Origin: a virus
Lineage: Duplodnaviria > Caudoviricetes
Virus record (IMG/VR): IMGVR_UViG_3300025357_000013
Location: 1 to 59,196 of that record
Strand: one strand, 5' to 3'
DNA: 59,196 nt
This document shows, one piece after another, positions 1-59,196 of this stretch (the first letter of the stretch is position 1; the number at the start of each line of letters is the position of its first letter). A program made the translations under genes and the position numbers. The notes under the pieces were generated by a model. That model was not told where the DNA came from, ran no database searches, and saw only the letters and a program-made list of their open reading frames with translations.

Positions 1-161
1 TGAGCTGCTCGAAGTTGGTGTCCACGATCTTGCCGTCAAACACCATGGCGAGCTTGGGAAGAAGCTGACGTGAAGGCTCGACTGCCGTGCGCTCGGTGTT
101 CTCTGGCAGCCAGCGCGCAATCGCACAATGGCCTGCGCTGGGCTCCAGCGCTTTTTCACCC
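1..161. repeat. Terminal direct repeat (assembly circularisation overlap), left copy
   Basis: 1-161 matches 59036-59196 except position 127 (A vs C). The repeat lies inside a coding sequence whose frame continues across the join. Confidence 0.95.
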
Positions 162-3100
162 GGCAGCAGCTGCAGCCATTCGACCATTTTGAGCCCCAAA
201 GGCTCGGGGGTTGCGAAATAATCCGCCCCTTCCTGCGCCTTGGTTTTGCTGGTCTTTTTCTGGGTTCCGTAATAGAAGGCTTTGGCGCGGTCCCATTCGG
301 TGAGCGCTTCATTGGCCAGGCGGTCGCGTTCCTTTCCGCCCTTGCCCTCATCCTCCATCCCTGCGGGGTAATCTCCAGACTCTTCAAACCCGGCGATAAA
401 CGCATCCTTGAGTGCTCGGGCCTGTTCGCCCATGCCGAGGTTCTCTGCAGCACTGGCGCGCTGCGCGATCGTGGTCGCAAACGCCCACCTCTCCCAGTTG
501 GTTCCAGTGTTGAGGTAACGGAATATGGCGTCCGTAACCTGACCTGTGCGGTAGATACGGCCTTCCTGCTGGATTGCTGTCGTCGGCTGCGTCGGCTGCC
601 CCAGATTCAGAAGTACGCGCTGATGTTTGCCGGTGGTATCGTGAAGACTGATACCCTCCTTGCCTGCCGCTGACTGCACCAGGATCACTTGCGGTCCACT
701 GGCGTCGTCTTGAAACTTTTCAACATTGGCTCTGCGAACCTTTGCGGGAACGTCGCCATTGAAGAGTAAAACGTCTGGGAATTCGCGCCTGAAGACCTCG
801 ATCGGGTTCGGCATCGAGGCGAAATCGATTCCGATCAGATCTTTGAATTCCGTATTGAACTTGTCGAGCGCCTCATTAAAGAGCGGGTTGCTGGTCCGAT
901 TGATCCTGAATGGATGGAATCCGCCGCCTTTCTTGTAGTCATGGAACACCACGACCTTGCGGCCGATCGCCATGTGCTCCTTGACGTGCTTGATGACCTC
1001 AGACGCTTTGATGGCTTCCAAAAGGTATCGACGGGACAGATAGTCGAACTTGTCGCCTACCGCGTCCTCCAATTCGCCTACGCCATTCGGGTCGCCGCCT
1101 TCATCCTTAATCCGATCGGCTTCGTCGTGGAACCATTCCAGCGCTTGATCGATCCGCGTACCGATCGCAGACTCCACCAGAATGAATCGACGATCATAGT
1201 CCGCCGCCACATCCAGCATTCGACCAGAGAGAGATCCGCGCTTTTTGAGCCAGGTATTGAATTGCCGCTGCATCAAACCGCTGTCGACCTTTGCATCCGG
1301 CTTGGTGAGCTTGTTGTAACGCATCCGATAACCGAAATGCGTCATAAAGAATCGGTCTTTATTGCTGCCCTGGTTGTAGCCCCTGAACTCCTTCGATTCG
1401 TCGGATTGCCCTTCGCTGTAATCAAAGAGGTAGCCGTTCGCCCAATCGACCGTGGGCTCATACGCAAACGGGGTGGCTGACAGGAAAAGAGATCGGGGCC
1501 TTGATGCGTTTTGTGAAGCAGCGACGTCGGCCTTCACTTTTTCCAAGGCGGCTGACCACTTGGCTCCCGCAGCTGCGAGCTTGGGCTCAATCACCGCAAG
1601 GAGTTTCTGAAGATCAGCGACGGTCGAATCCATCGTGTCTGAATTCGAAATGGTCTTATTTGCGTTTTCAACCTGTTTACTCAGGTCTTCAATCTCATCC
1701 CGCAGATCCCGGTGCAGCATTTCTGCGCGGCGGTACGCCCCATCCGGATGCTTAGTGATCGCTCGAAGGTTCTGGATGACCTGAGTCGGCTTGCCGCTGC
1801 CATCCTGCATCAGGTAGTGCGCTTCGTCCGTGACGGTCAGATCCCAGTTGCGATCGGCCAGCGCATTGTTTGAGCCAAAATTCGCGTAGGTGGTGATCGT
1901 GATGCCTTTGCCGGCATCCTTGGTGTCATCGAGTCGGTTGATCGGAAGGTTCAGGATCTTTCCTGACTTGATCCAGTCCTCAATGATCTTGTCGTTCGGG
2001 GCAAGAATGATGATGTTGGTTTTGCCAAGATTGGCAAACCGCTTGATGACGCCAAGACCCGTAAAGGTTTTGCCGGTGCCGGTGCCGTTGGTAAACAGCA
2101 TTCCGTAACCATCGGGGGCGCTGAATCGCTTTTCTGCCTTTAGGACGTCTTCCTGTTGTCCCGGGAGGAGCGCTGGCAGGGCGGCCTTAATCTCATCCAG
2201 CCCTTCGCCGTTATGCTTTTGCGCATCGGCTGTCGTCTGTTCGGCTTGGTCTGCCTTTACTTCAGATCGGCTTCGAGCAGCTGCCTTAATTGGTCCTGCT
2301 GCATTGGGTTCAACGGGCGATCCGCTGACGCCAACAAGATCGCCTCCGCTACCGAGACGATCTCCGGCATCGCTGTCCGCAGATTCGGTTGACCCTCGAT
2401 AAATCGTGAGATCGCTAGGTTCTCTAGGAGATACGGTTTCACGTCCATGTAGCTCGCTGCTACCGAGTGTCCGTGCTTCTCCTTCACCTTGTTGTATTCC
2501 TGCCCCTCGAACTCCGCCATTTCGAGCGGATCCAGAGCGAACGCCTTCTTGGCCCAGTCCGTTTTGAGTGTCTGCGTTTTCGCGATCTCGTTCCAGATTG
2601 GAGTCGCTATTCCGGTCAGTGACATTGGTTTCACCCTGATGAATTTCTGCTAGGGATTCTACGCTGACGACGTCTTTCTTCGTATCGGCGCCTTGATCCC
2701 GGTACTTGCCAGACATTGCAATGTAAGAGCCTTGCAGGTGGTCCAGCGTGATCGAATCGGCTGCTGCATCCCCAAACTTGGCGCGAATGGTGTCCAGCGC
2801 AAACTTGGAGGCATCCTTAAATTTGTGATATCCGAGGCGGAATGCGGCATCCAGAAGACGCGCAAGGACCGGAATCAGCTTGGCTTCATCAAGCTCATTG
2901 GTCGGGACCGCTTTTTGCACGAACAGGTTGGCATCGAGGAAAACCTGGCCCAGATCCTTGAGCGCGTCATCAAGATCAGCCTGCGCCTTCTGAGCACCTT
3001 CTGAGGTCGGTGTTGCCGGTTTCTCTGCAGCCTTCAATCGATCGATGCGATTGCTGGGCTCGGAGAATACGTCGGCCTGCCGATTGTCCTGATCAAAGAG

Positions 3101-6100
3101 TCCGCCGGATATTTCCTGACCCGTTGCGTTGCGCTGGCGCGCCTTTTCCTTTGCGTAGGCCTCTACAGCCTCTTTATCGGAGCGCTGCTGATCTTCCTTG
3201 GTGGGTGCGCCAAATAGGTCATCGACCAAATTAGCCGAACCGCCTTTTTGTTTTGACGTTTCCCTTATGCGATCAGCCAGCCGATCTATCCAACCAAATT
3301 CATTGGCCTTGATTTGATTATTGATTTCACCGATGAGGCCTGTATCAAGTCTTTGCCCTATTTCTGAGTTGGCAAACCGTTGCGGCGTGAGCTTTCCTTT
3401 TTTGGCCTCATCGCGCAAAACATCCAATTCAAACAAGGCATCGTCATGCGAAAGAGGCCCAAACGTTTCGTAAGCGGGTTGGCCGGTAATCTGATAGGCG
3501 GCATAGTTGATGTTTTGAATTGGCGCACTGGTTTGGCCAGACAACGCTTGTTCCAGGCTTTTCCGCACCAATGGGAAATACTGGCCCTTGCCGGCCGTCA
3601 TATCTTTGGCGGCTTGCTCAAAGATGCTTTGAACTTTGGCGCTTCCAAATTTGGAAATAGCCTGCTCAATCAGAGCTTCGGTTTCCTTGATATTTTGGTC
3701 GTCTGAGGTTTCTTCTGGCGATAAGGATTCAGCCTTGGATCCTTGATTCAATGGTTTGAGAATGCTCGGTACAACGGCAGGCTGTTTTCCAAACAAATAC
3801 TCTTCAGCAGCGTCTTTCGATGCTTGCGGAACGTCATTGCGACCAATGTCATTTAGGAATTGCCCCGAATTGAATTCGTCCAGGCGATGCAAGGCTTCGT
3901 TGTAGGCGTTTTTGATAAGCCATTGAGTGACTTTGGCTTCACCCTGCCGGCCAATAGCCCCATCCTTTCCGTTAAAGTTCGGGAATGGGCTTGTTTCGCG
4001 ACCTGAAGAAGTTCTGACAACTTCTCCGGGTGAAAGCATCATTCCCACCTGGCCTTGGCGAATCTCGGCTTTATTTGTCCCTACGTCTTGTTTTGCGCTT
4101 CCAGTTCCGCGCCGATCAGCTATGGCTTTCTTGAAATAAGCCAGCGTAATCGGGGGAGGTGCATTAACGGTTTCGTAATGACTTTCGTAATATGCGTATA
4201 ACTCCTCGGGGCTCATGTTGACCCAAGGGGCTCGGGTTTCATCAATGAGGTCATGCGCCCCATCAACATCAATCTGCACCAGCCTGCTTTCAGCGATATT
4301 GCCTCTGGATCCAAGCGGAATGGCTGATACCCCTTCTCGGGTCAACATGCCTTCTGGAAGTTTCTTTAGTTCCTTTTCGGCTTGCGCTATTTCTTTTTCA
4401 ATTCGTTTACGATCATACGCGCCCTTGGTTTTTGTGAGCCTGCGCTCAAGGCTCTCAATGCCCCAAATAAGATCCGCCCTTTGCTGTTCCTGTTCCGGCG
4501 AAGCAAATGACTCTTTGCGCGCCTTTCGCGCAGCGCGGCGCTCCTTGATGGGCGCTAGGGCTTCTTCTCCTCCTTGCCCTTCCTGTTCGCCTCGCTGAAT
4601 TGCTTCAGCGTCTCCTTGTCTTTCTCGTCCGGTTTCTTTCGTCCCATCATTGCCTTCAGGAGACTCGCTCCCTCCGGCGTGTTCCAGCGATTCTTCTTGC
4701 TGTCCACGATACTTCCTCAGTCTGTCGAGGACATCCTGTCGGGTCGCCTTCTGGCGCTCACCGAAAAGATCCTCTCCCGGGTTATTGGATTCTTCAAAGG
4801 CAAAATCAGCGGCGTCGGTCAGCGCCTCGATCGCCATCTTATTGCTTCGGGGATTATCAGCAAAGAGCGCAAGGATGTCTGCAGTCCCTGGCTGATGCGT
4901 GATATCGATCTGCTTTGCGATCTGCTGCATCGTAAGACCGGATCGCTTGCCGTTGACGATCGAGATTGCGGCCTCGGCCACCAGATCACTGATATCTTCA
5001 TAGCCGGTCCCTTCAAGGCGCGCCATTTTTGGAGCTACCCGGGCAAGGGCCGACATGACCAGTCTGGCTTCAGGATCGGCTGCTTGCGAGAAGAGCCGCA
5101 CCAGTTCGTCATTCCGGTAGGCCTTGAAGAATATCGATGCTTTCAGGCGGTCATAGGCGTCTCGGTTTGGGGTTCCGTCAGTATCGAGAAGGGCGCCCTG
5201 CTCGTTTTCCGGCATGGTCCGGACAAATTGCTTGACGGTGCGCTCATTGATTTCGCCGTCATCATTGAAGTCGAGCCCACCCAGATCGATGCGCTGGGAG
5301 TCGTTTTTGGCTTTCTCAAGCGGTGAAAGCTCCAGCCCGTTGCCGATATTTGATTCATCGCCAATATCCTTGGTGAGATCGCTCTCCGACATGACGCGAA
5401 CTAGAATCGGCCTTGACATGACGCCACCGACAACGGTTGGCTCAATGCCGTGTCGATGTTGATCGGAATACATGCCGTGGACGTAATCGAAGGCAGAGCC
5501 TTGCTGATGGGCTTTCTGCAAACCCGCGACCCGGCCATTGCCGGCAATCACCTTGAATTTGCCTTTCGGAATGTCGTCATATTCAGGGTTGGGCGAACCA
5601 TCCGCCTTATGAGACGGCACCAGGTTCCACGCCTCAATGGCGGCGTATTGGAACGGGATCTCGCGGTTTTTAGCGGTGACCGCAATATCCTTGTTGCCGA
5701 GTTGGATGGCAGGGATATTCCCACCGACGACAACGGGCGCTCCGTTGGCAAAATCATTCCCCGGGCCCAGCCGCAAATAATGCGGCCTTGCCGCAATCGA
5801 CTGCATCTGCTGGATCGATGCGGGGTTTGATCGATCACGATTCTGGATGACCGGCGCTTCGGATTCCTTGCGCTTCCCTAGTGAATGTCCACTGTCTCCA
5901 CGATCGCCAGCGTCCCCGGCTCCAGTGGATACAGATTCAGAAACGCCACCAGTTCCGCCGCCAGCTGATCCTCCAGTTGATCCGACAGCTGCAGCTCCAG
6001 TTCCGACACTAGATCTTTCAGTTGCGCGTCTTCCGCCTGAAGTTTTCTCAATTCCGCTTCCAGTGTTTCCTTCGGGATGATCGGCATCTTGATAGACCTC

Positions 6101-8806
6101 TGGAACAAAGTTGCCCATTTCGGCGCGGCGAACAAGGGATTCGAGCGAATCAGCCAGCGCGGTCTCACCGTTGTCTCTTGCGGCGAGAGCCTTTTGCTTT
6201 AATCGCTCGATACCTGCCTGAGTTTCTTCACTCAGTCCTCGATGTCTTCCTGGCTCGGAGCTTTGCCGATCGGTTCCGGCTTCGGCATCGGAGGCGCTTT
6301 CACGTCCGTCCATTCCGGCATTTTGTTTTCCGGGCGCGGAGGAATCCCCTTCCCGTCGTTGTTCCATTCGTTCTGTTCGATTGCCATCTTGGCTCTCCTG
6401 TTCTTGATGTAAACGCTGATTGGCCGCCAATGTGGCATCGAACGCATCGCCTGGATGATCGTGAATGCTTTCGACATTCCCGTTACCAGAGACGACGGCG
6501 AACTTGCCATCCGGGGTTTTCTGGACCGAATACGGGGTTAGCAGCAGCCCTTCTTGCTCTTGGCCGCCTTGGGACGACTCAGACCCGGTGCTGCCGGCAT
6601 GATCTTGTTGGGATTGGTTCGTTTGATCGCCTGCTTGACGGCTTTCGGCTGATCCTGAACTTTGGACAATGGGATTTTCGGCATTGGATACTCCTTGGGT
6701 TTTGGTGCTTTCTTGGATTCCGGGTGATTCAATCTGGCCCGAAATGGAATTTGGCGCAGGCGACAGCGCATCCAGTGCGCGACGTTTTGCCAGTTCTTGA
6801 CGCGCAGCCCGACCGCGTTCGAGGCCGCTGCTGTATTCATTGGTGTCGTTCTGAACGATCTGACGGAATCCGGGATCCGTCCGCAGCACAGACAAAGGCG
6901 TTTTGATCGTGTCGTCGTAGATGGCGCGAGATTCATGCGTCTCACGAACCGGGGCAAACGCATCCGCAAAAGGCTGGTCATGCCGCGCATCGCTTTCCTG
7001 AAGGCGACGATGAACCGCTGCTGCGCTCCCGGGTGCGCCCATCAGGGCGGTCTGGATCACGGTCTGGTGGAGGGTGTCTTTGACCTGCTTGAAAAGATCC
7101 TGGGCCGTTGCTTCGGGGTTCAGGCCGACGCGAGACTTATCGATCCCAAACTGCGCCAGGGTCGTCCCCTCCTCGCCTGCGATCTGTTCCGCCATGGTCT
7201 TGACGAATTGCTTCTCAAAGTCGCGCCAGTTGCCTCCGGCTGCGCGCTTCAGCATGTTGACCTGGTCTTTGAAGCCCAGCTTCTCGCCAAGGTACTCAGC
7301 CGCTCCCATGCCGACGCTTCGGGTGAGCGCTTGGGGCTTACTGAGTCCGTGCTCGATGCCGTTGGCGTACTCATCCCCAGCGACCTGACTGCTCATCATC
7401 AAGAGCGGAATGGTCTGACCGCCCGTAAACAACCCTACGGCATAGCCCGGTGCGTTGGAGATCGTGGACGCGATCGCGCCTTCCAGATTCCGGTTGAAAT
7501 CGTTCGGCGCCTCACCCATTTCGGTTTGGCGCATTCCCAGTCGCTTGCGCGCTTCAAGCTGTGCGCGACCGTAGCCTGCTGCGCCCGGGACACCCAGCGA
7601 TTCACCGACATCGGCCACCATCTTGTTGAGGCCGGCCGCCTGCTGCTTGAGGATGTCCCCGCCTTGAATGACGCCTCGCGTAATGGGGCTTGCGTTTCTG
7701 AGCTCTTTGCTGCGCTCAAAATTGAAATCCGTGGACTGAGCTTGACCCTTGATTGGGGCTGCATTGAAATCCGCTTCACGCTCGGCCATCGCCTGAGCTG
7801 ATTTGGGATCCATGCCATTACTGCGGTTACGGGAAGCAATGTCTTCGACCCGGCCACCAAAATCCTCGTTGGCAATCGATCCGCCCTGGTACTTCTTGTT
7901 GAAGTATCGAGAAACCGCACCCAAAGGTCCGGGCTCGCCCATAAAGCGCTTACGCTGATCGGGTGTTGCCGACTCATAAAGGTCGCGGACACGATCCATG
8001 TATTCAGGCTTGACCGGGACGCCCAGTTCTCGATGAAGCTGGATCAGATCCGGATCTGCCTTGATGCGATCCTTTTCCGGAATGCTTCCAGAATAGGAAG
8101 CCCGATCCAAGCCGACCATCTTGGGCTGGCCGTAGGCGGCGTATTCGGGTGAATTTGGATCTTGGGCCGCAAGGTATTCACGGCGCTGCTCTTTCGAAAC
8201 CGGGAGCTTGAATTGTTCGGCAGGCTCAATGTGCTCTACAGCGGATTTCACTGCGCTCAGGCCGCGCTTGAGTAGGCCAGGCTCTTCGGCCTTGATTGGT
8301 TCAGGTGCTTTCGGTCTTTCAAGCGGCTCAAACTCCATGTCATCGGTGAGCTTGATGCCGGCCGCCAAAGGCGGTTCGGATGCAGGCGTAGGCTGGTATT
8401 CGCCCCGACGACGACGCGCCCCAATCGGCTCAACGTGCCACGGCTCATGCCCCATCGGGAAATGAAGGCCGTAGTTGGCCGCATTTTCATGAACCCACTT
8501 TTTGACGTCGTCACTTTCATACCCAAGATCACTGGCCAGATCATGGTTGTGCATCGAGCGACCGGGAGGCGCGACGTTATGACGCGCAGCCGTTTCCGAC
8601 CCATACTTTTTGATGGCTGCATCGTAAAGCTGGGCCTGACGCTCGTTCGATCGGTATCCCGAATTGACCCATACTTTTCCCGGCGCATCCGAGATCAGTC
8701 GATCAAGGTTGCCGTGAAACTCTGAAGGACCGGCGCTTTCGGGGCGCGAAACGTCTTCTTCAGGAAGGTCTACAGGGTTGCCGCTCTTGAGGTCGAATAC
8801 TGCCAT
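1..8806 (-). CDS. Giant DarB-like polyvalent virion protein, 5' part. Continues across the window end into 59035-54690, about 4,383 aa in total
   Basis: ATG at 8806 (MAVFDLKSG). Same frame as ORF 54690..59081 after circularisation, and the ORF track shows no stop-terminated ORF in this frame. Motifs: M15/VanY peptidase (SGYRS..Q..LY, APPGRSMH..LASD, EPWH; ~8420-8720), DdrB-like ParB (QNRDRS, AGNGR, PILVR, SN..LSPLEKA; ~5260-5850), SF2 helicase (NGTGTGKT ~2066-2089, DEAH ~1817-1829), MTase start (DYFATPE, LEPSAGH). Confidence 0.88.
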   Translation of the reverse strand, partial: MAVFDLKSGNPVDLPEEDVSRPESAGPSEFHGNLDRLISDAPGKVWVNSGYRSNERQAQLYDAAIKKYGSETAARHNVAPPGRSMHNHDLASDLGYESDDVKKWVHENAANYGLHFPMGHEPWHVEPIGARRRRGEYQPTPASEPPLAAGIKLTDDMEFEPLERPKAPEPIKAEEPGLLKRGLSAVKSAVEHIEPAEQFKLPVSKEQRREYLAAQDPNSPEYAAYGQPKMVGLDRASYSGSIPEKDRIKADPDLIQLHRELGVPVKPEYMDRVRDLYESATPDQRKRFMGEPGPLGAVSRYFNKKYQGGSIANEDFGGRVEDIASRNRSNGMDPKSAQAMAEREADFNAAPIKGQAQSTDFNFERSKELRNASPITRGVIQGGDILKQQAAGLNKMVADVGESLGVPGAAGYGRAQLEARKRLGMRQTEMGEAPNDFNRNLEGAIASTISNAPGYAVGLFTGGQTIPLLMMSSQVAGDEYANGIEHGLSKPQALTRSVGMGAAEYLGEKLGFKDQVNMLKRAAGGNWRDFEKQFVKTMAEQIAGEEGTTLAQFGIDKSRVGLNPEATAQDLFKQVKDTLHQTVIQTALMGAPGSAAAVHRRLQESDARHDQPFADAFAPVRETHESRAIYDDTIKTPLSVLRTDPGFRQIVQNDTNEYSSGLERGRAARQELAKRRALDALSPAPNSISGQIESPGIQESTKTQGVSNAENPIVQSSGSAESRQAGDQTNQSQQDHAGSTGSESSQGGQEQEGLLLTPYSVQKTPDGKFAVVSGNGNVESIHDHPGDAFDATLAANQRLHQEQESQDGNRTERMEQRREGDSSAPGKQNAGMDGRESASDAEAGTDRQSSEPGRHRGLSEETQAGIERLKQKALAARDNGETALADSLESLVRRAEMGNFVPEVYQDADHPEGNTGSGIEKTSGGRRATERSSVGTGAAAVGSTGGSAGGGTGGVSESVSTGAGDAGDRGDSGHSLGKRKESEAPVIQNRDRSNPASIQQMQSIAARPHYLRLGPGNDFANGAPVVVGGNIPAIQLGNKDIAVTAKNREIPFQYAAIEAWNLVPSHKADGSPNPEYDDIPKGKFKVIAGNGRVAGLQKAHQQGSAFDYVHGMYSDQHRHGIEPTVVGGVMSRPILVRVMSESDLTKDIGDESNIGNGLELSPLEKAKNDSQRIDLGGLDFNDDGEINERTVKQFVRTMPENEQGALLDTDGTPNRDAYDRLKASIFFKAYRNDELVRLFSQAADPEARLVMSALARVAPKMARLEGTGYEDISDLVAEAAISIVNGKRSGLTMQQIAKQIDITHQPGTADILALFADNPRSNKMAIEALTDAADFAFEESNNPGEDLFGERQKATRQDVLDRLRKYRGQQEESLEHAGGSESPEGNDGTKETGRERQGDAEAIQRGEQEGQGGEEALAPIKERRAARKARKESFASPEQEQQRADLIWGIESLERRLTKTKGAYDRKRIEKEIAQAEKELKKLPEGMLTREGVSAIPLGSRGNIAESRLVQIDVDGAHDLIDETRAPWVNMSPEELYAYYESHYETVNAPPPITLAYFKKAIADRRGTGSAKQDVGTNKAEIRQGQVGMMLSPGEVVRTSSGRETSPFPNFNGKDGAIGRQGEAKVTQWLIKNAYNEALHRLDEFNSGQFLNDIGRNDVPQASKDAAEEYLFGKQPAVVPSILKPLNQGSKAESLSPEETSDDQNIKETEALIEQAISKFGSAKVQSIFEQAAKDMTAGKGQYFPLVRKSLEQALSGQTSAPIQNINYAAYQITGQPAYETFGPLSHDDALFELDVLRDEAKKGKLTPQRFANSEIGQRLDTGLIGEINNQIKANEFGWIDRLADRIRETSKQKGGSANLVDDLFGAPTKEDQQRSDKEAVEAYAKEKARQRNATGQEISGGLFDQDNRQADVFSEPSNRIDRLKAAEKPATPTSEGAQKAQADLDDALKDLGQVFLDANLFVQKAVPTNELDEAKLIPVLARLLDAAFRLGYHKFKDASKFALDTIRAKFGDAAADSITLDHLQGSYIAMSGKYRDQGADTKKDVVSVESLAEIHQGETNVTDRNSDSNLERDRENADTQNGLGQEGVRSGSARNGGVRGAGIQQGEGEARTLGSSELHGRETVSPREPSDLTIYRGSTESADSDAGDRLGSGGDLVGVSGSPVEPNAAGPIKAAARSRSEVKADQAEQTTADAQKHNGEGLDEIKAALPALLPGQQEDVLKAEKRFSAPDGYGMLFTNGTGTGKTFTGLGVIKRFANLGKTNIIILAPNDKIIEDWIKSGKILNLPINRLDDTKDAGKGITITTYANFGSNNALADRNWDLTVTDEAHYLMQDGSGKPTQVIQNLRAITKHPDGAYRRAEMLHRDLRDEIEDLSKQVENANKTISNSDTMDSTVADLQKLLAVIEPKLAAAGAKWSAALEKVKADVAASQNASRPRSLFLSATPFAYEPTVDWANGYLFDYSEGQSDESKEFRGYNQGSNKDRFFMTHFGYRMRYNKLTKPDAKVDSGLMQRQFNTWLKKRGSLSGRMLDVAADYDRRFILVESAIGTRIDQALEWFHDEADRIKDEGGDPNGVGELEDAVGDKFDYLSRRYLLEAIKASEVIKHVKEHMAIGRKVVVFHDYKKGGGFHPFRINRTSNPLFNEALDKFNTEFKDLIGIDFASMPNPIEVFRREFPDVLLFNGDVPAKVRRANVEKFQDDASGPQVILVQSAAGKEGISLHDTTGKHQRVLLNLGQPTQPTTAIQQEGRIYRTGQVTDAIFRYLNTGTNWERWAFATTIAQRASAAENLGMGEQARALKDAFIAGFEESGDYPAGMEDEGKGGKERDRLANEALTEWDRAKAFYYGTQKKTSKTKAQEGADYFATPEPLGLKMVEWLQLLPGEKALEPSAGHCAIARWLPENTERTAVEPSRQLLPKLAMVFDGKIVDTNFEQL
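2257..2625 (-). CDS. Nested 122-aa ORF in the +1 frame of the giant gene
   Basis: AGGGTG-6 nt-ATG. MSLTGIATPIWNEIAKTQTLKTDWAKKAF... has globular helical composition, while the giant frame here reads as an R/G/D/S-rich linker. Confidence 0.65.
   Translation of the reverse strand: MSLTGIATPIWNEIAKTQTLKTDWAKKAFALDPLEMAEFEGQEYNKVKEKHGHSVAASYMDVKPYLLENLAISRFIEGQPNLRTAMPEIVSVAEAILLASADRPLNPMQQDQLRQLLEADLK
4555..4707 (-). CDS. Nested 50-aa basic ORF in the +1 frame of the giant gene
   Basis: GAGGAAG then GTG start. MDSKKNRWNTPEGASLLKAMMGRKKPDEKDKETLKQFSEANRKGKEEKKP, TAG stop. Below the ORF-track size cut-off. Confidence 0.45.
   Translation of the reverse strand: MDSKKNRWNTPEGASLLKAMMGRKKPDEKDKETLKQFSEANRKGKEEKKP
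5878..6087 (-). CDS. Nested 69-aa acidic coiled-coil ORF in the +1 frame of the giant gene
   Basis: GAGGT-8 nt-ATG. MPIIPKETLEAELRKLQAEDAQLKDLVSELELQL... shows a heptad pattern. Confidence 0.55.
   Translation of the reverse strand: MPIIPKETLEAELRKLQAEDAQLKDLVSELELQLSDQLEDQLAAELVAFLNLYPLEPGTLAIVETVDIH
6232..6387 (-). CDS. Nested 51-aa Pro-rich ORF in the +1 frame of the giant gene
   Basis: AGGAG-7 nt-ATG. MAIEQNEWNNDGKGIPPRPENKMPEW... Confidence 0.5.
   Translation of the reverse strand: MAIEQNEWNNDGKGIPPRPENKMPEWTDVKAPPMPKPEPIGKAPSQEDIED
6538..6684 (-). CDS. Nested 48-aa Lys-rich ORF ending in CC, in the +1 frame of the giant gene
   Basis: AAGGAG-6 nt-ATG. MPKIPLSKVQ...AAKSKKGCC. Third codon positions are G/C-rich in this frame. 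Confidence 0.5.
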   Translation of the reverse strand: MPKIPLSKVQDQPKAVKQAIKRTNPNKIMPAAPGLSRPKAAKSKKGCC

Positions 8807-16620: not shown

Positions 16621-17922
16621 TTAGAGGGCATAGCGAATGATGACAATGCCGGAGCCGCCGTTGCCTCCGTCCCCGCCGCCAGTGGCGCCTTGACCTATGC
16701 CGCCAGCACCTCCGCCACCTCCACCGGTGTTCGATGTTCCAGAAACACCGTTCCCGCTAATAGCACCAGCGCCACCGCCGCCAGCACCGCCAACTCCAGC
16801 AGGGAGGCCGGGACTAGTATAGATACCGCCGCCACCTCCACCGCCGTAATAAGTGGCTACCCCGGAAATAGAGGATGAGATCCCAATACCGCCTCCGCCA
16901 CCAGCACCAGAGCTGCCGCCAGCGGCCCCAGCCCCGCCTGCACCGCCGCCTCCGCCACCACGATAAATGTTTCCAGTTGATGGGGCTCCCCCCGCGTATC
17001 CTTGGCCGGTTGTGCCAGCGCCACCAGAAGAAAACGCACCGGTTGTTTCGCCGCCAGCGCCACCGCCTGACCCTCCGGCTCCCGGATAAAACGTATTACC
17101 GTATGGAGCGCCCCCGCCCCCTCCTATGGTTGAAACCAAAGAGCCAAGAGATGACGCAGCCCCATTTCCTCCTGTTGCTATAACCCCTTGCCCGGAAGCG
17201 CCAGAGCCACCGGCTCCAATGGTAATTGTCTGCGTGGCGTTGATAGTCGCGGAGCCTTGAAGTACGCCGCCAGCCCCGCCGGCTCCGGCGTAAGGACGAC
17301 CACCACCGGCACCACCAGCAACGACTAAATAATCTGCTGTTGCAGAAAATCCGTTCGGAATTGCAAATGTTCCAGATGATGTAAAGGTGTGAATACGGTA
17401 GTTGCCGACAGTTGTAATAGTTCCGCCTGTAGGAGGGCTGATTACAGTGGCAGTTGTACTGGGAGAAACCCCGCCATCAGCATTGGCGACGGTAATGGAT
17501 ACCGAGGAAGACGCAGACAAGCCGTAGATTGCTGATGGTACGGAGACAACTAAGGAAGCACCGGCGTTTGTTGGAGTCCCCGTCGCCGTTGCAGTTGTAG
17601 CGCCCGATGTGAAAGTCACAGTGGCTACCCCAGAACCAAAGTTCAATCCTGCGAAGGTGAGGGTTGAAGCAGCCCCGGCGTAAATGTTTCCTGTAATCGA
17701 AGAGATCGTGGGAATCGCCACGGAAATCTTCAGCCACCCGTTCGACGTATAGTTCTCCATCGCCCCGGTGTCGGTGTTGTACCGCTGATACCCGATGGCT
17801 GGATTTGAAGGTCTTTGCGCCGTCGTACCTGAAGGGATCTGTGCAGCACCCGTGTTTGAGTCTTTAAGAACAACCCCACCGCCGCCAGAGAGAAGGGATG
17901 CAATGCTTCGTGCAAGTGACAT
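16621..17922 (-). CDS. Glycine-rich tail fibre/adhesin protein
   Basis: PSGTTAQRPS module, IPT-like beta domain, YRIHTFTSSG, YLVVAGGAGG...GGSGIVIIRY glycine-rich domain. Confidence 0.75.
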   Translation of the reverse strand: MSLARSIASLLSGGGGVVLKDSNTGAAQIPSGTTAQRPSNPAIGYQRYNTDTGAMENYTSNGWLKISVAIPTISSITGNIYAGAASTLTFAGLNFGSGVATVTFTSGATTATATGTPTNAGASLVVSVPSAIYGLSASSSVSITVANADGGVSPSTTATVISPPTGGTITTVGNYRIHTFTSSGTFAIPNGFSATADYLVVAGGAGGGRPYAGAGGAGGVLQGSATINATQTITIGAGGSGASGQGVIATGGNGAASSLGSLVSTIGGGGGAPYGNTFYPGAGGSGGGAGGETTGAFSSGGAGTTGQGYAGGAPSTGNIYRGGGGGGAGGAGAAGGSSGAGGGGGIGISSSISGVATYYGGGGGGGIYTSPGLPAGVGGAGGGGAGAISGNGVSGTSNTGGGGGGAGGIGQGATGGGDGGNGGSGIVIIRYAL

Positions 17923-54237: not shown

Positions 54238-54693
54238 CTAGATTTGGGCTGCCAGATAGTTCTGCAGCCCAATCTCATCAATGATGCCGAGCTGGGCGGT
54301 ATACCATTCGATATCGTCTTCGGTGTCATTGGTGAGTTTCTGCAGCACCTTGAACGTCTGCCAATCCTGTTCGTCATCGTCGGCGGACTGCATGAGGTCC
54401 GTAAGGCTACGAAGAACGCGGGTCTCGGTGGCAAGGTCCGCCTCAAACATGGCTTTCACGTCCCAGCTGGATTGTGCCTTAACGGGCAGTTGCGGGATGT
54501 AATCAGGCCAGCCTCCCAGCTGCTGAATCCTCCGAATCACTCGATTCGCGTGTCCGCGCTCTTCCTTTGCCGATTCTTCATATCGTTTGGCCAGCTTTTC
54601 ATAGCCGCGAAACTTCAGAATCTGGGCCTGTCCCGCATAGCGGACATTGGCGCTGATTTCGAGGGGAAGATGCTTGTTCAGCTGATCAATCAT
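54238..54693 (-). CDS. bfr: Bacterioferritin-like protein
   Basis: Colinear with Bfr: LN..L..E..A...Y, ES..E..HA...I.RI..L.G.P, M...DLA.E, W...L..I..IGLQNYL.AQI. Confidence 0.85.
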   Translation of the reverse strand: MIDQLNKHLPLEISANVRYAGQAQILKFRGYEKLAKRYEESAKEERGHANRVIRRIQQLGGWPDYIPQLPVKAQSSWDVKAMFEADLATETRVLRSLTDLMQSADDDEQDWQTFKVLQKLTNDTEDDIEWYTAQLGIIDEIGLQNYLAAQI

Positions 54694-57600
54694 TTTGCTA
54701 CCTGCTTAACCTGGTCGTTGAAATCCTTCATCAGATCGGAGATCCGGCTTTCGACCTTCTTGATCTCATCCTTTGAATCGCCCTTTCTCTGAAGGAATCG
54801 TTTTCTGGCATTGAGTAAGGAAAGGCGCCGCTCGACGTCATCCGCTTTTCGGATCAGCTTGGATTCGGGGTGCGACTCCTTGAATGCCTTCAATTCATCC
54901 TGTTTGTGCGCCTTTTTGAGCCCTTCGATTTCGTTCTGGGTCACGTTGAGCTCAGTTACGTTCCGGTAGAACCGATCGCGTTCAGCTGAAGCGGAATGCG
55001 CGTTTCCATAGAATCGACCCGCCAGAGGGATCTTGTACGGTGGCAGCTGTTCGCCAGTGAACAAGCTACCGACCGCCTGCTCGGCTTTGATGGCTTCTCG
55101 ACCGACGCCGCCCGTTGCCTGACCGATCAGGTAATCGATCTGATCCGGTGTCGGAGAAACGCGCCCAGGTTTGTAGTCATCCCCTCCGGTGAGCGTGTTG
55201 ATCACCTTCGCAAACCACTTCCCAAAGAGGCTGGCCGTATCCTTGGACCGCGTGAATCCGGGTGTCGGATCCAGTCCGCTTCGATCCTGCTTGGCGATCG
55301 GCCGACCAAATGCGTCGGTGTTACGCTCCAGCGCCACGATCGGATCGGTAATCGTTGGAGAGAGCACCTCAGAGATCGATTTGCCTGATCCCATCGGATT
55401 GAAGGACTCGATATAGGCCGCCATCAGGTCAAAGACCTTATCGCCTGCATGTTTGCCGCCACTCAGGACAAGCTCCATCAGGATGCGCCCGGTGTTCGGA
55501 AGAACGTGATAGCCCAGCGCATAAGGGACCGAGAAGTATTTGTCGCCTACCGGAATCACGAAATTGCGTTCGCGGGTGAACTGCGGCGGCTCATCATCGT
55601 CATAACCGGCTGCTGCCATCATCACAGCTTGGAGAACGCCCACCAGAAGACCGCCAGCAATGATTTTCTTGCCGGCCGGCCCATTCAGCGTCTCAAGGAT
55701 TCTCGCGGTTCCTTGCGCGTTGGCGTTGAAGAACGCATAGAGCGCCCCGAGTTGGGAAGCCAGCTGACCCTTCTTGTTGAAATTGACGGTCAGGTTCTTG
55801 GCGATCGCTGCGGCTTTGTCGGTGGAGATCCCTGCATCGATGGCCACTTTATAGGCTGACAAGCGAATCGCGTTTTCCGTGGTCTCATTGAAATCGGACA
55901 GCCATCCCGACAGTGGGGTGACCAGCGGGGATGCCGCTTTGCGGACCATTTCCATCGGGACTTTTAGGCGACCGTCTGCCGTAAAGAAACGACCCAGACC
56001 GTGATCTGCCCATGAGGAAGGATCCAGCATTCTCTGAATCGCTATGGCTCGATCTTCGGATGTCCGGTAATTATCGCGATAACCCGTTTTGCCTCCGTGC
56101 TCTTGGAAATCTTCCCAGAGCTTTGCCCACTGGCCGGCCGAGCGGGGTCGCCCTGCCCTGTCAGCCCGCAGATCCGCATAGATCCCGACAATCGCCGGCC
56201 CTACATGAGCCAGGACGTCTTTTTCTTTGCCGGCAATTTCCGTGCTGGTGAGATTGAGCGCGCCCGCACCCAAGTCTCTCAGCAGGTTCACCACGCCAAA
56301 GATCGGGTTGTATTGCGTATTCATCGAGGCGAACGCATGAGTAAACATGCGGACCCCAGACAGGAATGATCCCAGCTGATCAGAATCGAGGTTCTTGAGC
56401 GACTCAACCATCCGAGCGGCTCTTGGATCCCCGGTATTAAAGAAGATGAATCGATCTTTTCCGTTGACGCGCACGGCAAGGACATTGTCCCTATTGCGGA
56501 GCGCCGGGTTGATCCTGGCTGCCACAAGACCCGTCTGTTGATCGATATATCGCGTCGCCGGTTCGCGCATCAGGCCATCAATCTCATCAGGCTGCAGCCC
56601 CATCATTTGGAGCTCGTTCCGGGTGCGTCTGGGCGCTCGAATCGCTTCGGGATTGACCGGCAGCCAGAAGTTCGGATTCTCGTTCTGGATGGCAAGACCA
56701 TAAAGCGCTACGCCGACCCGGTTCTTTTCTGCGCGGACGATCGTCCTTTCGCGCTGCATCAGGATGTTGGCAATGATATCCACGACCGGCTTATCTGAGC
56801 CCATGGCCCGTTTGCTGGCTGGGCCCCTGACCGAGAAACCCTGTCCGGTTCCGTTGCCACGGTTAGAAATATCCGACTCACCACGCATCAGTGGGACGTA
56901 GAACTTATAAGCCTCATCCCATGCTGCAATCGTTTCGGGTACTTCAAGGCCTGAATCGATCAGGATCTTCTTGGTGTTGCTGTTGATCTTGTCGACCAGC
57001 CCTGCCAGCGCCTCAAGATCCTTTTGCTTTTCGGGTGACAAACCCTTCAGGTAATCCTGAGCATCTTGCGTCAGAATGCCGGATCCGCCATCGAGCATCT
57101 TGGGATTGATCTTGGCGATTTGTTCGTTTCGCTCCTGGGCATGACGGTTCCAAAGGTAGGTCTCAAGCTCATCCATCGAGACGCCCTTGTCCTGCATGGC
57201 CTTTACCAGCGGCTTGACCTCATTGGTCAGGAAATCTTCCGTCTGCTTGGCGGCGCGACCGTGGTAGAGCATTTCCTTCTGGTAGGGATTCCATTCATCC
57301 TCGATGCCCTTGATCGCTTCCTGTACCCGCTTGGTGTCGATCAGCTTGTCCTGCATCCGGTAGATGAAGTCATCCAGCGACGTTGCGCCTGGGGACGTCC
57401 ATGTGGCAAGAGGCTCTTCACCAAGGACATTTTTCTTACTGAACGCCGGGTCGTGAGAACTCCAGCTGTTATCACCATTGATGGGCGCATTGCCATCACG
57501 GAGCTTGGTGAATATCCCTGCAATGAGATCAGCGGCCTCCTGTGTTGGGCGTGTAGTTTTCCATTCTTCAGACGCCTCTTTGTACCCATACTTTTCGGCA

Positions 57601-59196
57601 AGTCGAGAAATCCAGTTGGATATAGCTCTGATGGCACGTCTGATTCTGCCGACTTTTTTTTGCGCTTCTCGTTGAGACCCAATGAGCTCTGCAAGGTACG
57701 CCAGCGCTTCGTCAACGCCTCTGGCTCTAAGGTAGGATCTGGATTCGCTGCTTTTTACAATTTCAGCGGCGTCATCGCTTTGTATCCAAAGGTCGGCTCT
57801 TTCTCTAATCCATGGATCCTTGTTGTAAAGGTCATTCATGGCTTCGATATACTGACTCTTGGTCATAAATCGCCGCAAGCCAAAATGGAGCAACTCATGC
57901 CAAAGAGTTTTGACAACATCCGACCTGTTGGCGAGTCCATTCCTGAAGAGGTACAGGCTACCGTTGAAGAGAAGCCCAGAAGCTCCGTTGCTCTCTTCGT
58001 TTACCCCGGCCACGTCAATGACCGAATCTTCAATTCGAAGGGGGATTGCAGTGGCAAATGGCTTGAGGAGATGGCTCGTGATTTCCCGGATGTCCTCGGA
58101 TGACATCCATTGATCTTCTGGCAGCGGTTCCAAAATATCGTTTTTGAAAACCTTTTCTTCGGATCCAGGACGATCCACATGCTTCATTCGGATGAAGAAT
58201 CCGCCATCCTTTTTCCATGTGTAAGGATCGATGGCTTGCGCTTCTTCCGCTGTCAGATCGCGAGCAATGACGCCCTCGATCGTTTTTCCCTTCATCGTGG
58301 TGTGCGTTATGGCCGGCGCATCGGTGACGTATCGATTGCCTTCGACCTGGCCTTTTGGAGTCGGCTTAGTTTCTGAATCAACCTGATCCGCCAGCGACGT
58401 CGCTTCCTTGCCGATACGCGCAGGCAGTGAGGATTCCTCGATGCGGTCAAAGAACTCATTGATGTCTTTTGCGCCTGAGTAATCCCTGCTCGATTGCTGG
58501 ATCCGCTTTGCCTTTTCGGGATCTTCCTGCTTTTCGAGAACAACAATGTGCGTGTTGACGCTGGTTCCCGCCCGCTCAAACACGGATGACGGCAAATAGA
58601 TATCAGCTACGGTGTAAAGGTTTTCAGACCGGCGCGCCACCTTCTCACGGCGACCAGTCGCATTGAGCTCAGTCACCCATTCTGGGTTTACGGCCGTTGC
58701 ATGGTTTGCGCCCGTCCTGCGAACAAGTAGCTGATCCCCCTGCGTCCCAATGACTTTACCTTCAGGCATCCATGCGTAGGATGTCTTGATCGTGTCGCCC
58801 ACATAAACTGGACCCAGCTCTTTTGTGCGCGCAGTAGGTTCAATCGGCGTCCGGGTTTCATCGTGAAGGAATTTATCCAGCTGCTTGTCGGCAGCGGGCC
58901 CTGCAGGAATCAAAGCCACAATGCGGCCGCCATCCCGAAGGTGCTGTGCGGCTTTTGCCAGATGATCAACCGCCGTTTTCCCACCGCTTCCGAACGGGGG
59001 GTTCATCACGATCCCGTCAAACTTATTGACGATATTGAGCTGCTCGAAGTTGGTGTCCACGATCTTGCCGTCAAACACCATGGCGAGCTTGGGAAGAAGC
59101 TGACGTGAAGGCTCGACTGCCGTGCGCTCGGTGTTCTCTGGCAGCCAGCGCGCAATCGCACCATGGCCTGCGCTGGGCTCCAGCGCTTTTTCACCC
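54690..59196 (-). CDS. Giant DarB-like polyvalent virion protein, 3' part (continuation of 8806-1)
   Basis: LEPSAGHG motif I, VMNPPFG motif IV and F..AGT.V.T (N6-MTase); WHELLH...DEALA zincin; LPD38-like C-terminus (AKNLTVNFNKKG, FFNA..QG, N.DAFGRPI, SP..IDYL....TGG.G). Confidence 0.9.
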   Translation of the reverse strand, partial: GEKALEPSAGHGAIARWLPENTERTAVEPSRQLLPKLAMVFDGKIVDTNFEQLNIVNKFDGIVMNPPFGSGGKTAVDHLAKAAQHLRDGGRIVALIPAGPAADKQLDKFLHDETRTPIEPTARTKELGPVYVGDTIKTSYAWMPEGKVIGTQGDQLLVRRTGANHATAVNPEWVTELNATGRREKVARRSENLYTVADIYLPSSVFERAGTSVNTHIVVLEKQEDPEKAKRIQQSSRDYSGAKDINEFFDRIEESSLPARIGKEATSLADQVDSETKPTPKGQVEGNRYVTDAPAITHTTMKGKTIEGVIARDLTAEEAQAIDPYTWKKDGGFFIRMKHVDRPGSEEKVFKNDILEPLPEDQWMSSEDIREITSHLLKPFATAIPLRIEDSVIDVAGVNEESNGASGLLFNGSLYLFRNGLANRSDVVKTLWHELLHFGLRRFMTKSQYIEAMNDLYNKDPWIRERADLWIQSDDAAEIVKSSESRSYLRARGVDEALAYLAELIGSQREAQKKVGRIRRAIRAISNWISRLAEKYGYKEASEEWKTTRPTQEAADLIAGIFTKLRDGNAPINGDNSWSSHDPAFSKKNVLGEEPLATWTSPGATSLDDFIYRMQDKLIDTKRVQEAIKGIEDEWNPYQKEMLYHGRAAKQTEDFLTNEVKPLVKAMQDKGVSMDELETYLWNRHAQERNEQIAKINPKMLDGGSGILTQDAQDYLKGLSPEKQKDLEALAGLVDKINSNTKKILIDSGLEVPETIAAWDEAYKFYVPLMRGESDISNRGNGTGQGFSVRGPASKRAMGSDKPVVDIIANILMQRERTIVRAEKNRVGVALYGLAIQNENPNFWLPVNPEAIRAPRRTRNELQMMGLQPDEIDGLMREPATRYIDQQTGLVAARINPALRNRDNVLAVRVNGKDRFIFFNTGDPRAARMVESLKNLDSDQLGSFLSGVRMFTHAFASMNTQYNPIFGVVNLLRDLGAGALNLTSTEIAGKEKDVLAHVGPAIVGIYADLRADRAGRPRSAGQWAKLWEDFQEHGGKTGYRDNYRTSEDRAIAIQRMLDPSSWADHGLGRFFTADGRLKVPMEMVRKAASPLVTPLSGWLSDFNETTENAIRLSAYKVAIDAGISTDKAAAIAKNLTVNFNKKGQLASQLGALYAFFNANAQGTARILETLNGPAGKKIIAGGLLVGVLQAVMMAAAGYDDDEPPQFTRERNFVIPVGDKYFSVPYALGYHVLPNTGRILMELVLSGGKHAGDKVFDLMAAYIESFNPMGSGKSISEVLSPTITDPIVALERNTDAFGRPIAKQDRSGLDPTPGFTRSKDTASLFGKWFAKVINTLTGGDDYKPGRVSPTPDQIDYLIGQATGGVGREAIKAEQAVGSLFTGEQLPPYKIPLAGRFYGNAHSASAERDRFYRNVTELNVTQNEIEGLKKAHKQDELKAFKESHPESKLIRKADDVERRLSLLNARKRFLQRKGDSKDEIKKVESRISDLMKDFNDQVKQVAK
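59036..59196. repeat. Terminal direct repeat, right copy
   Basis: Matches 1-161. Confidence 0.95.

What the first reader, a model, noticed from the sequence alone, without database searches (positions are those of the whole stretch)
2257..2625. 122-aa nested protein directly upstream of the helicase domain
Seen: this is the longest nested ORF, with Trp/Tyr/Phe and amphipathic helices (IWNEIAK..LKTDWAKKAF...). It stops about 170 nt before the helicase Walker A. Inference: a folded partner or regulator of the adjacent helicase-MTase unit, co-translated from inside its own gene.
Basis: partly seen in the sequence, partly recalled or inferred. Interest (0 to 1): 0.7.

Follow-up and report, generated by a model that had tools for sequence, protein, structure and literature searches.

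The report
Conserved gene hidden inside giant phage gene
A 122-residue, well-folded protein is encoded in a shifted reading frame inside the flexible linker of a giant phage anti-restriction-like gene, is conserved across many phages, is missing from the phage annotations checked, and probably works with the helicase next to it.

Summary
The ORF at 2257-2625 (-) is real and is almost certainly a genuine gene. It lies in the +1 frame of a giant ORF of more than 4,400 codons, over a Gly/Ser/Asp/Arg-rich linker, and ends 177 nt before the helicase Walker A.

Homologues sit in the same +1 frame, at the same place, in 6 cultured phages and in 54 of 58 fetched loci. In this stretch the embedded frame is the one under selection:
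- Its wobble position is the most variable in 164 of 173 pairs.
- A sliding scan over 6.6 kb flags only this ORF.
- Its protein is better conserved than the linker in 901 of 903 pairs.

The host frame is also kept open against expectation, so both frames are read. All 65 loci have an ATG at the homologous place, usually with a Shine-Dalgarno motif, though the window's own is weak. The family has 543 cluster representatives. It folds with high confidence (pLDDT 95.6) into a seven-helix domain with no Pfam match and no clear match to a solved structure.

A role as partner of the helicase-methylase rests on fixed position, one-to-one co-occurrence and a weak complex prediction. No expression data were available. 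The scan noted this ORF before only on this same window.

The parts
2257..2625 (-). Embedded gene: ATG at 2625-2623, 122 codons, TAA at 2259-2257. It is in the +1 frame of the giant ORF and encodes a seven-helix protein of a family without a name.
   Evidence: ORF. (same frame and place in relatives). (selection follows this frame). (family and fold).
2631..2636 (-). Weak Shine-Dalgarno-like GGGTGA, 5 nt before the ATG.
   Evidence: upstream sequence. (duplex energy -3.9 kcal/mol here, against a family mean of -7.16). (here only the 31st local percentile, so weak in this copy).
2255..2626 (-). Host-frame codons laid over the embedded gene (about residues 2061-2184 of the giant protein). This is a linker that is 75% G/S/D/E/R/N/Q/T/P and 15% hydrophobic.
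   Evidence: composition. (the frame is kept open although resampling leaves it open in a mean 5% of trials).
2..8806 (-). Host gene, first 2935 codons: VanY-type peptidase, ddrB-ParB domain, linker, SF2 helicase (ResIII/Helicase_C), and the start of an N6-adenine methylase-like domain.
2066..2080 (-). Helicase Walker A (GTGKT) in the host frame, 177 nt after the embedded stop.
   Evidence: offset of 182 codons. (165-239, mostly 178-188, in 45 of 49 distinct copies).
54690..59195 (-). Rest of the same giant gene at the other end of the record: remainder of the methylase and the C-terminal domains.
   Evidence: DNA methyltransferase PHROGs at residues 1-113; C-terminal parts of phrog_10691 and phrog_14770. 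(the window is one whole virus record).

Best explanation
The ORF at 2257-2625 (-) is a real protein-coding gene lying entirely inside the giant virion-type helicase-methylase gene, in its +1 frame. The same DNA is read twice. Ribosomes on the giant frame read it as a flexible linker between an upstream helical domain and the helicase (shown by conservation). Ribosomes that start at the internal ATG read it as a compact 122-residue seven-helix protein (inferred, because no expression data exist). In this stretch the embedded frame carries most of the selection, and the linker sequence is largely its by-product. The most likely role, which is inferred and weaker, is as a separate subunit, chaperone or regulator that docks on the helicase-methylase part of the giant protein. 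Embedding would then ensure the two are inherited and made together. My estimate is about 0.9 that it is a real gene and about 0.45 that it is a helicase-methylase partner.
For: 1. Same frame elsewhere. tblastn of the protein hit 6 records of 5 phages, all inside annotated giant CDSs. In each, the offset from the CDS start is 1 mod 3, and the frame is open. A sixth phage, Skulduggery, shows the same. Of 58 fetched loci, 54 have the ORF embedded in a long host frame.

2. Selection follows the embedded frame.
- The BLOSUM score is higher for the embedded frame than for the host frame in 45 of 45 pairs.
- Identity is higher in 901 of 903 pairs, mean 0.40 against 0.26.
- The embedded frame's third position is the most variable in 164 of 173 pairs, and the host frame's in 1. 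In the helicase the host third position is the most variable in 173 of 173.
- In a sliding scan of window 26-6625 against 11 relatives, the only 7 bins where the host third position is not the most variable span 2665-2186.
- Codon usage fits the rest of the giant gene better in the embedded frame in 40 of 45 loci. GC3 is 0.77 for the embedded frame, 0.40 for the host frame and 0.73 for the reference.

3. Start signals. An ATG lies within 12 codons upstream of the conserved Trp in 64 of 65 loci by script, and in the 65th by eye. The anti-SD duplex energy averages -7.16 kcal/mol, against -2.72 for 5663 other ATGs. The median local rank is 0.078.

4. Both frames are kept. The host frame stays open in a mean 5% (median 1%) of synonymous resamplings, yet it is open in 45 of 45.

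5. A real family that folds. There are 543 cluster representatives at E<=1e-3. The model has pLDDT 95.6 and pTM 0.87.

6. Intact copies survive outside the giant frame in 4 of 58 loci.

7. Partner role.
- Walker A lies 165-239 (mostly 178-188) host codons after the ATG in 45 of 49 distinct copies.
- The helicase segment and the small protein hit the same 8 phage records.
- Pairwise identities of the two correlate (Spearman 0.46).
- One database protein (P0157) carries the domain in frame with the pre-helicase motif, 15 of 27 identical, E 1e-4.
- Complex prediction gave 'weak support': score 0.57, best of 3 controls 0.00. The mark was reached by 58 of 80 solved complexes and 2 of 110 mismatched pairs. 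At 0.60 or under it was reached by only 7 of those 80 and by both mismatches that passed. The runs agree in at least 56% of contacts, and partner pLDDT is at least 82.
Against: There is no direct evidence of expression: no RNA run was listed, and no peptide data were seen.

The window's own Shine-Dalgarno motif is weak (-3.9 kcal/mol, 31st local percentile). No promoter-like site lies upstream of it.

In the window itself, synonymous-codon fit is equal in the two frames (0.007 against 0.011), although GC3 differs.

An open +1 frame over this linker is not rare by itself (mean 31%).

On the partner role:
- The complex score falls in the band the tool calls 'more often wrong than right unless the guess was likely beforehand'.
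- Four free copies have no helicase of this kind downstream, so the protein may work without it.
- The fused forms P0026 and P0157 were seen only as database proteins. Their DNA could not be fetched, so assembly frameshifts cannot be excluded.
- Many loci are related to each other, so counts of loci and pairs overstate the number of independent events.
Confidence: 0.5

Rival explanations
1. It is a real embedded gene, but its product works independently of the helicase-methylase. It could be, for example, an anti-defence or host-takeover factor, or an assembly factor for another part of the virion. It would sit in the linker only because that is the one place in the giant gene that tolerates a second frame.
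For: All the evidence for a real gene applies. Four intact free copies lack this helicase downstream, and they lie in varied contexts. One is next to a Type III restriction-modification pair, one is next to DUF3987 and Toprim primase genes, and two are beside housekeeping genes. No known fold or family points to helicase binding. The complex score is only 'weak support'.
Against: The position relative to Walker A is nearly fixed in 45 of 49 copies. The ORF co-occurs one-to-one with this helicase subfamily in cultured phages, 8 of 8 records. The complex score was 0.57 against 0.00 in three controls. Two of the four free copies are recent derivatives of embedded ones.
Confidence: 0.35
2. The small domain is not made as a separate protein. 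It is joined to the giant protein, or to a shorter helicase-methylase isoform, by programmed ribosomal frameshifting into or out of the +1 frame.
For: One database protein (P0157) has the domain in frame with the pre-helicase motif, and another (P0026) has it in frame with the domain that precedes the linker. So polypeptides that join these parts may exist.
Against: A canonical X_XXY_YYZ slippery heptamer in the embedded frame occurs in only 4 of 49 distinct copies, never near the 3' end, and not in the window. Stops flank the ORF in its own frame in every locus, and in several the upstream stop abuts the ATG. An ATG is conserved in 65 of 65 loci, with enriched Shine-Dalgarno motifs.
Confidence: 0.04
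3. It is a chance open frame, and its apparent conservation is only the shadow of conservation in the giant frame.
For: The +1 frame of this Gly/Asp/Glu/Arg-rich linker stays open in a mean 31% of resamplings. Longer +1-frame ORFs exist elsewhere in the same gene. The window's own ribosome-binding motif is weak.
Against: The host frame's third position is the least variable here and its first is the most variable, the opposite of the flanks. The embedded protein is better conserved than the host linker in 901 of 903 pairs. The family alignment gives a pLDDT 95.6 fold. Intact copies persist where the host frame is broken (L065, L067).
Confidence: 0.03

Closest known systems
Embedded spanin gene pair of phage lambda (Rz1 inside Rz, +1 frame). 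The lambda details are recalled from general knowledge. The Parlo genome announcement PMC6606913 (passages read) mentions 'embedded spanin genes'.
   Same: A complete gene with its own start lies wholly inside another gene on the same strand, in the +1 frame, in a tailed phage. Both frames are kept, and the two products are thought to act together.
   Different: Here the host gene is a giant multi-enzyme protein, and the overlap is confined to an inter-domain linker. The embedded frame is the more constrained one. The embedded product is a 122-residue helical domain rather than a short lipoprotein. The interaction is not shown.
Overprinted genes of small viruses such as phiX174 E, K and B. The phiX174 details are recalled. 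The review PMC8227390 was seen only in a search listing.
   Same: Two proteins are read from one DNA stretch in different frames. One of the pair is structured and the other is low in complexity.
   Different: The usual picture is a young, disordered protein overprinted on an old gene. Here the embedded ORF has the typical codon usage (40 of 45 loci) and a confident fold, while the host frame is the disordered one. The genome is about 59 kb of double-stranded DNA, with no obvious pressure on size.
P1 DarB and the polyvalent proteins of phages and conjugative elements (Iyer et al. 2017, PMC5512222; passages read).
   Same: The host gene is a very large multi-domain protein that combines an SF2 helicase with an adenine-methylase-like domain, a ddrB-ParB domain and a peptidase. 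Relatives are annotated 'DarB-like antirestriction'.
   Different: The passages describe the methylase fused at its C terminus to the helicase. Here the helicase comes first. The text holds no occurrence of 'overlapping' or 'frameshift' and no mention of a gene inside a polyvalent gene. The embedded protein matches no Pfam LPD family above threshold.

Membership tests
Embedded out-of-frame phage gene (Rz/Rz1-type architecture) | The ORF lies wholly inside another gene, on the same strand, in a different frame. | tested here: met
   2257-2625 lies inside 2..8806 (-), with an offset of 1 mod 3. The same holds in 6 cultured phages and in 54 of 58 loci.
Embedded out-of-frame phage gene (Rz/Rz1-type architecture) | The ORF has its own start codon with a ribosome-binding site. 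| tested here: met
   An ATG is present in 65 of 65 loci. SD-like duplex energy averages -7.16 against -2.72 kcal/mol. In the window itself the motif is weak (-3.9, 31st local percentile).
Embedded out-of-frame phage gene (Rz/Rz1-type architecture) | Both reading frames are under selection. | tested here: met
   The embedded frame is shown. The host frame is open in 45 of 45 loci, although resampling leaves it open in a mean 5% of trials.
Embedded out-of-frame phage gene (Rz/Rz1-type architecture) | The embedded product is made, and it acts with the product of the host gene. | tested here: inconclusive
   No expression data were available. The complex prediction gave 'weak support': 0.57 against a best control of 0.00.
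De novo overprinted gene (a young frame laid over an older gene) | The embedded frame has atypical codon usage, low complexity or disorder, and a narrower distribution than the host frame. | tested here: not met
   The embedded frame fits the gene's codon usage better in 40 of 45 loci, with GC3 of 0.77 against 0.40. It folds at pLDDT 95.6. It occurs in every cultured phage that has this helicase, 8 of 8 records. The host-frame linker is the disordered one.
Programmed ribosomal frameshift product | A conserved slippery site, and no independent start. | tested here: not met
   Slippery heptamers occur in 4 of 49 copies and none lies near the 3' end. The ATG is conserved in 65 of 65 loci.
Pfam domains of polyvalent proteins (LPD families) or any other Pfam family | A match above the family's gathering score. 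| tested here: not met
   The window's protein matched 0 families. Among 121 family members, LPD3 matched 1 member at E 0.012 and PrmC_N matched 3 members with a best E of 0.0015. Nothing was consistent.
Known protein fold | A clear structural match to a solved or predicted viral structure. | tested here: inconclusive
   Foldseek against PDB and BFVD gave no match with E<=0.001. VIA-align against 48,161 chains gave a best Z of 4.3.
P1 DarB-type methylase-helicase dyad (the host gene) | An adenine methylase fused at its C terminus to an SF2 helicase, with LPD36 at the N terminus (Iyer 2017 passage). | tested here: not met
   The helicase lies at residues 2215-2786, and the methylase-like matches start near 2848 and continue at 54690-59195. 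The order is therefore reversed. No LPD36 match was listed.

The most novel reading that the evidence does not exclude
The embedded gene may be older than the frame that hosts it. On this reading the giant protein's linker is itself the overprint. An upstream polyvalent gene and a helicase-methylase gene became one reading frame by reading through a resident small gene in another frame. The small gene kept its own start, fold and selection. This would be a way for giant phage proteins to grow by swallowing a gene without losing it, and the 'conserved motifs' in such linkers would be mere shadows of the hidden gene.
Probability: 0.3. Interest if true: 0.85.

Novelty: new variant of a known kind. 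Interest (0 to 1): 0.75.

Why it matters
Gene callers and curators discard ORFs that lie inside longer genes. None of the 8 GenBank phage records that hold this gene (6 phages) lists it; each lists only the giant CDS under the match. Yet it defines a family of at least 543 sequence clusters with a confident fold and no clear relative among solved structures.

It is an unusually clean case of dual coding in a double-stranded DNA phage, and the usual roles are reversed. The hidden frame is the ordered, constrained one, and the visible frame is a disordered linker shaped by it.

It gives a concrete, testable candidate for an accessory subunit of the large helicase-methylase proteins that relatives' records annotate as DarB-like antirestriction proteins. 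It also warns that conserved motifs in linkers of giant proteins, and in profile families built from them, may be shadows of another frame.

Several cultured phages carry it, including one on a harmless laboratory Pseudomonas, so experiments are straightforward.

Tried and rejected
- **Chance ORF or shadow conservation:** rejected.
- **Frameshift fusion:** rejected.
- **Strongly acidic DNA mimic:** not supported. The median pI is 5.15 and the median net charge is -4.3.
- **Known families:** Pfam, PHROGs (only phrog_7866 at E 0.084), PADLOC (1 of 16 members at E 0.0023) and PDB sequences (best E 0.6) gave nothing usable.
- **Folds:** Foldseek against PDB and BFVD on the first, poorer model, Foldseek against PDB on the good model and VIA-align wide (best Z 4.3) gave no clear relative.
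- **ESM Atlas:** best score 0.86, to unnamed clusters. This is a lead only.
- **Plasmids:** tblastn found no match.
- **Expression:** no RNA holder was listed for window 1800-3200.
- **Promoter scan of 1900-3300:** one promoter-like site on the - strand at 2037-2010, which is downstream of the ORF, and none upstream.
- **RNA fold around the start:** z-score 0.09, nothing special.
- **Pfam on ten longer family members:** 0 families.
- **DNA of the fused forms P0157 and P0026:** not found in metagenome contigs or viral contigs. They remain protein-level observations.
- **False positives:** L010 and L011. P0031 is a repeat artefact.
- **Ancestral three-gene arrangement** (upstream gene, free small gene, helicase gene): not seen in any of the 58 loci. 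The tree puts two free copies (L065, L067) inside embedded clades and leaves L068 and L069 unresolved, so the direction of origin stays open.
- **Other +1 ORFs of the giant gene:** the scan shows no dual-coding signature, but relatives are near saturation upstream of about 3000, so this says little.
- **Literature:** (listings and abstract starts), plus term searches inside PMC5512222 and PMC6606913, found no description of this gene. Subscription journals and supplements were not searchable.
Full report
**What is in the window.** The window is one whole virus record of 59,196 bases. Its - strand carries a giant ORF, 2..8806, of 2935 codons that runs off the record. This ORF holds a VanY-type peptidase, a ddrB-ParB domain, an SF2 helicase (residues 2215-2786) and the start of an adenine-methylase-like domain. 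The rest of the gene is the ORF at 54690..59195 (-) at the other end of the record.

The finding is an ATG-started ORF of 122 codons at 2257-2625 (-), in the +1 frame of the giant ORF. It covers host residues of about 2061-2184. In the host frame these are 75% G/S/D/E/R/N/Q/T/P and 15% hydrophobic. The embedded protein is 33% hydrophobic. The embedded stop lies 177 nt before the Walker A motif.

**Relatives carry it in the same frame and place.** tblastn of the 125-aa translation against 50,697 phage records gave 6 records of 5 phages, with E from 5e-14 to 3e-7. Each hit lies inside an annotated giant CDS named DarB-like antirestriction protein, PLxRFG protein, N-6 adenine-specific DNA methylase or hypothetical protein. 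The distance from CDS start to match start is 4447, 4786, 4768, 2986 and 2974, and every one is 1 mod 3. Direct translation shows an open +1 frame of about 120-131 codons that starts at an ATG soon after a stop. Queries with two of these copies added Pseudomonas phage Skulduggery, again at an offset of 1 mod 3 (4267). No plasmid matched.

Scans of IMG/VR and of species-representative genomes with the family alignment gave 50 and 8 loci. By script, the host frame is open across the whole small ORF in 52 of these 58. Reading the six exceptions shows that L045 and L060 are also embedded: one has upstream stops in the giant gene, and the other ends at a contig end. That makes 54 of 58 embedded.

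**Which frame is selected.**
- For ten loci, the embedded-frame proteins align with a higher BLOSUM62 score than the host-frame proteins of the same DNA in 45 of 45 pairs (mean 210 against 115). Identity is higher in 41 of 45.
- In 43 loci, identity is higher in 901 of 903 pairs. The means are 0.40 for the small protein, 0.26 for the linker and 0.47 for 500 residues of helicase.
- Substitutions by codon position are decisive. Among 173 pairs with 45-95% identity, the embedded frame's third position is the most variable in 164 and the host frame's third position in 1. In the helicase of the same pairs, the host third position is the most variable in 173 of 173 (first seen in 9 pairs).
- A sliding scan of window 26-6625 against 11 relatives flags only the 7 bins spanning 2665-2186. 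There the host third-position variability falls from about 0.65 to 0.25-0.35.
- Codon usage tells the same story. The embedded frame fits the rest of the giant gene better than the host frame in 40 of 45 loci. GC3 is 0.77 for the embedded frame, 0.40 for the host frame and 0.73 for the reference. In the window itself the synonymous fit is equal, but GC3 is 0.72 against 0.36, with a reference of 0.68.

**Both frames are kept, and there is a start.** If the small protein is kept and its codons are resampled, the host frame stays open in a mean 5% (median 1%) of trials, yet it is open in 45 of 45 loci. The converse figure is a mean 31%. So the host frame is also under selection to stay open, as expected if the helicase must remain joined to the N-terminal part.

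An ATG lies within 12 codons upstream of the conserved Trp in 64 of 65 loci by script and in the 65th by eye. The predicted pairing with the 16S rRNA tail upstream of it averages -7.16 kcal/mol, against -2.72 for 5663 other ATGs of the same loci. Against positions within 400 nt, its median rank is 0.078, and 33 of 56 distinct loci fall in the top tenth. The window's own motif (GGGTGA, 5 nt before the ATG) is weak, at -3.9 kcal/mol and the 31st local percentile.

No promoter-like site lies upstream, so translation would start internally on the giant gene's mRNA. This step is inferred. Slippery heptamers for a -1 shift back into the host frame occur in 4 of 49 distinct copies, none near the 3' end, so a frameshift product is unlikely.

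**The protein.** A word-indexed search found 13 proteins of 124-139 aa. A full HMMER scan of 1.84 billion representatives with a 16-sequence profile found 543 at E<=1e-3, 416 at E<=1e-10 and 38 at E<=1e-30. Of the 150 listed, 107 are 112-145 aa long and 104 of those begin with Met. One (P0031) is a repeat artefact.

With 16 sequences, AlphaFold2 gave pLDDT 68.8. With 121 sequences it gave pLDDT 95.6 and pTM 0.87, as seven helices. Nearly invariant residues include W11, N12, A15, P64, E68, A71, I72, P87, E94 and A95. The family is mildly acidic, with a median pI of 5.15.

No Pfam, PADLOC or PDB sequence match is usable. No structural search gave a clear relative; the best Z was 4.3. Weak PrmC_N hits in 3 of 121 members (best E 0.0015) are a lead only.

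**Link to the helicase-methylase.**
- Walker A follows the ATG by 165-239, mostly 178-188, host codons in 45 of 49 distinct copies.
- In cultured phages, a tblastn with the helicase-methylase segment at E<=1e-20 returns exactly the 8 records that hold the small ORF.
- Some database proteins carry the domain in frame with neighbouring modules. In P0026 it precedes the domain that lies just upstream of the linker in the window (E 3e-10). In P0157 it precedes the pre-helicase motif (15 of 27 identical, E 1e-4). Their DNA could not be fetched.
- A complex prediction of the small protein with host residues 2151-2935, both given as alignments, gave 'weak support': score 0.57 (runs 0.67, 0.50, 0.57), best of 3 controls 0.00. 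The mark was reached by 58 of 80 solved complexes and 2 of 110 mismatched pairs. At 0.60 or under it was reached by only 7 of those 80 and by both mismatches that passed. The runs agree in at least 56% of contacts, and partner pLDDT is at least 82. No interface was given.

**Free copies and origin.** Four loci, all on bacterial MAG contigs, hold an intact small ORF without a continuous host frame.
- **L065:** the host frame stops inside the linker and no helicase follows.
- **L067:** a short relic with a host-frame stop.
- **L068:** a free gene that converges on a Type III restriction-modification pair.
- **L069:** a free gene near DUF3987 and Toprim primase genes.

In a maximum-likelihood tree of 57 small proteins, L065 is sister to embedded copies (support 100/97) and L067 groups with embedded copies. 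L068 and L069 are unresolved. So at least two free copies derive from embedded ones, and they kept the small frame while the host frame decayed. No locus shows a split three-gene arrangement. Order, constraint and codon usage suggest the small gene is the older frame, but the tree does not settle it.

**Comparison with what is known.** The architecture is that of embedded out-of-frame phage genes, as in the lambda Rz/Rz1 pair (recalled). It differs in three ways: the overlap sits in an inter-domain linker of a giant multi-enzyme protein, the hidden frame dominates selection, and the hidden product is a sizeable folded domain of an unnamed family. It does not fit the usual picture of a young, disordered overprinted gene.

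The host gene resembles the polyvalent DarB-like proteins (Iyer et al. 2017, passages read), but the helicase comes before the methylase. That paper's text has no occurrence of 'overlapping' or 'frameshift', and the Parlo announcement does not mention the gene. Six literature searches found no description of it. Subscription journals and supplements could not be searched.

**Limits.**
- All evidence for translation is comparative.
- Loci are phylogenetically related, so counts of loci and pairs are not counts of independent events.
- The function is unknown, and the partner role rests on position, co-occurrence and a weak prediction.

Noticed in passing
window 54690-59195 (-) together with 2-8806 (-): The giant gene is split by the ends of the record. 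The ORF at the right end starts with the rest of the methylase and matches the C-terminal parts of phrog_10691 and phrog_14770, so the whole protein is roughly 4,400 residues.
   Followed up: partly
window 7435-7992, 6538-6990, 5878-6684 and 4555-4707 (-): Other ORFs in the same +1 frame of the giant gene, two of them longer than the finding. The sliding codon-position scan shows no dual-coding signature there, but the available relatives are near saturation upstream of about 3000, so this is not informative.
   Followed up: partly
window 2255-2626 (-), host frame: The PHROG profiles of the giant protein (phrog_10691, phrog_5143) align straight through the linker. The recurring linker motifs, such as the 'LERD' and 'IY.G' words, are the out-of-frame shadows of the embedded protein's most conserved motifs. 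Profile families built from such giant proteins therefore contain conservation that belongs to another gene.
   Followed up: partly
L068:3938-8329: In a Burkholderiales MAG contig, a free-standing homologue with its own Shine-Dalgarno motif converges on a Type III restriction-modification pair (a Res helicase of 898 aa and an N6/N4 methylase) and follows a 517-aa ORF with no family.
   Followed up: partly
L067:1-1300: In a Desulfamplus MAG contig, the relic small gene is flanked on both sides by copies of a repeated element: the same peptide words recur in the translations upstream and downstream. The nature of the repeat is unknown.
   Followed up: no
window 16621-17922, 17935-19506 and 19908-21287 (-): Three tandem paralogues that all match phrog_2295 (unknown function) lie between the tail-fibre-like and internal-virion-protein genes and the head genes.
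   Followed up: no
family alignment A2: Three of 121 family members give weak hits to PrmC_N, the helical N-terminal domain of PrmC/HemK-type methyltransferases (best E 0.0015). This is intriguing beside a methylase, but it is at noise level.
   Followed up: no
L063, L064, L066: Nearly identical copies of the embedded gene and its host frame occur on short contigs binned into MAGs of three different phyla (Kiritimatiellota, Pseudomonadota, Chloroflexota). Phage contigs mis-binned into MAGs would explain this more simply than three true hosts.
   Followed up: no
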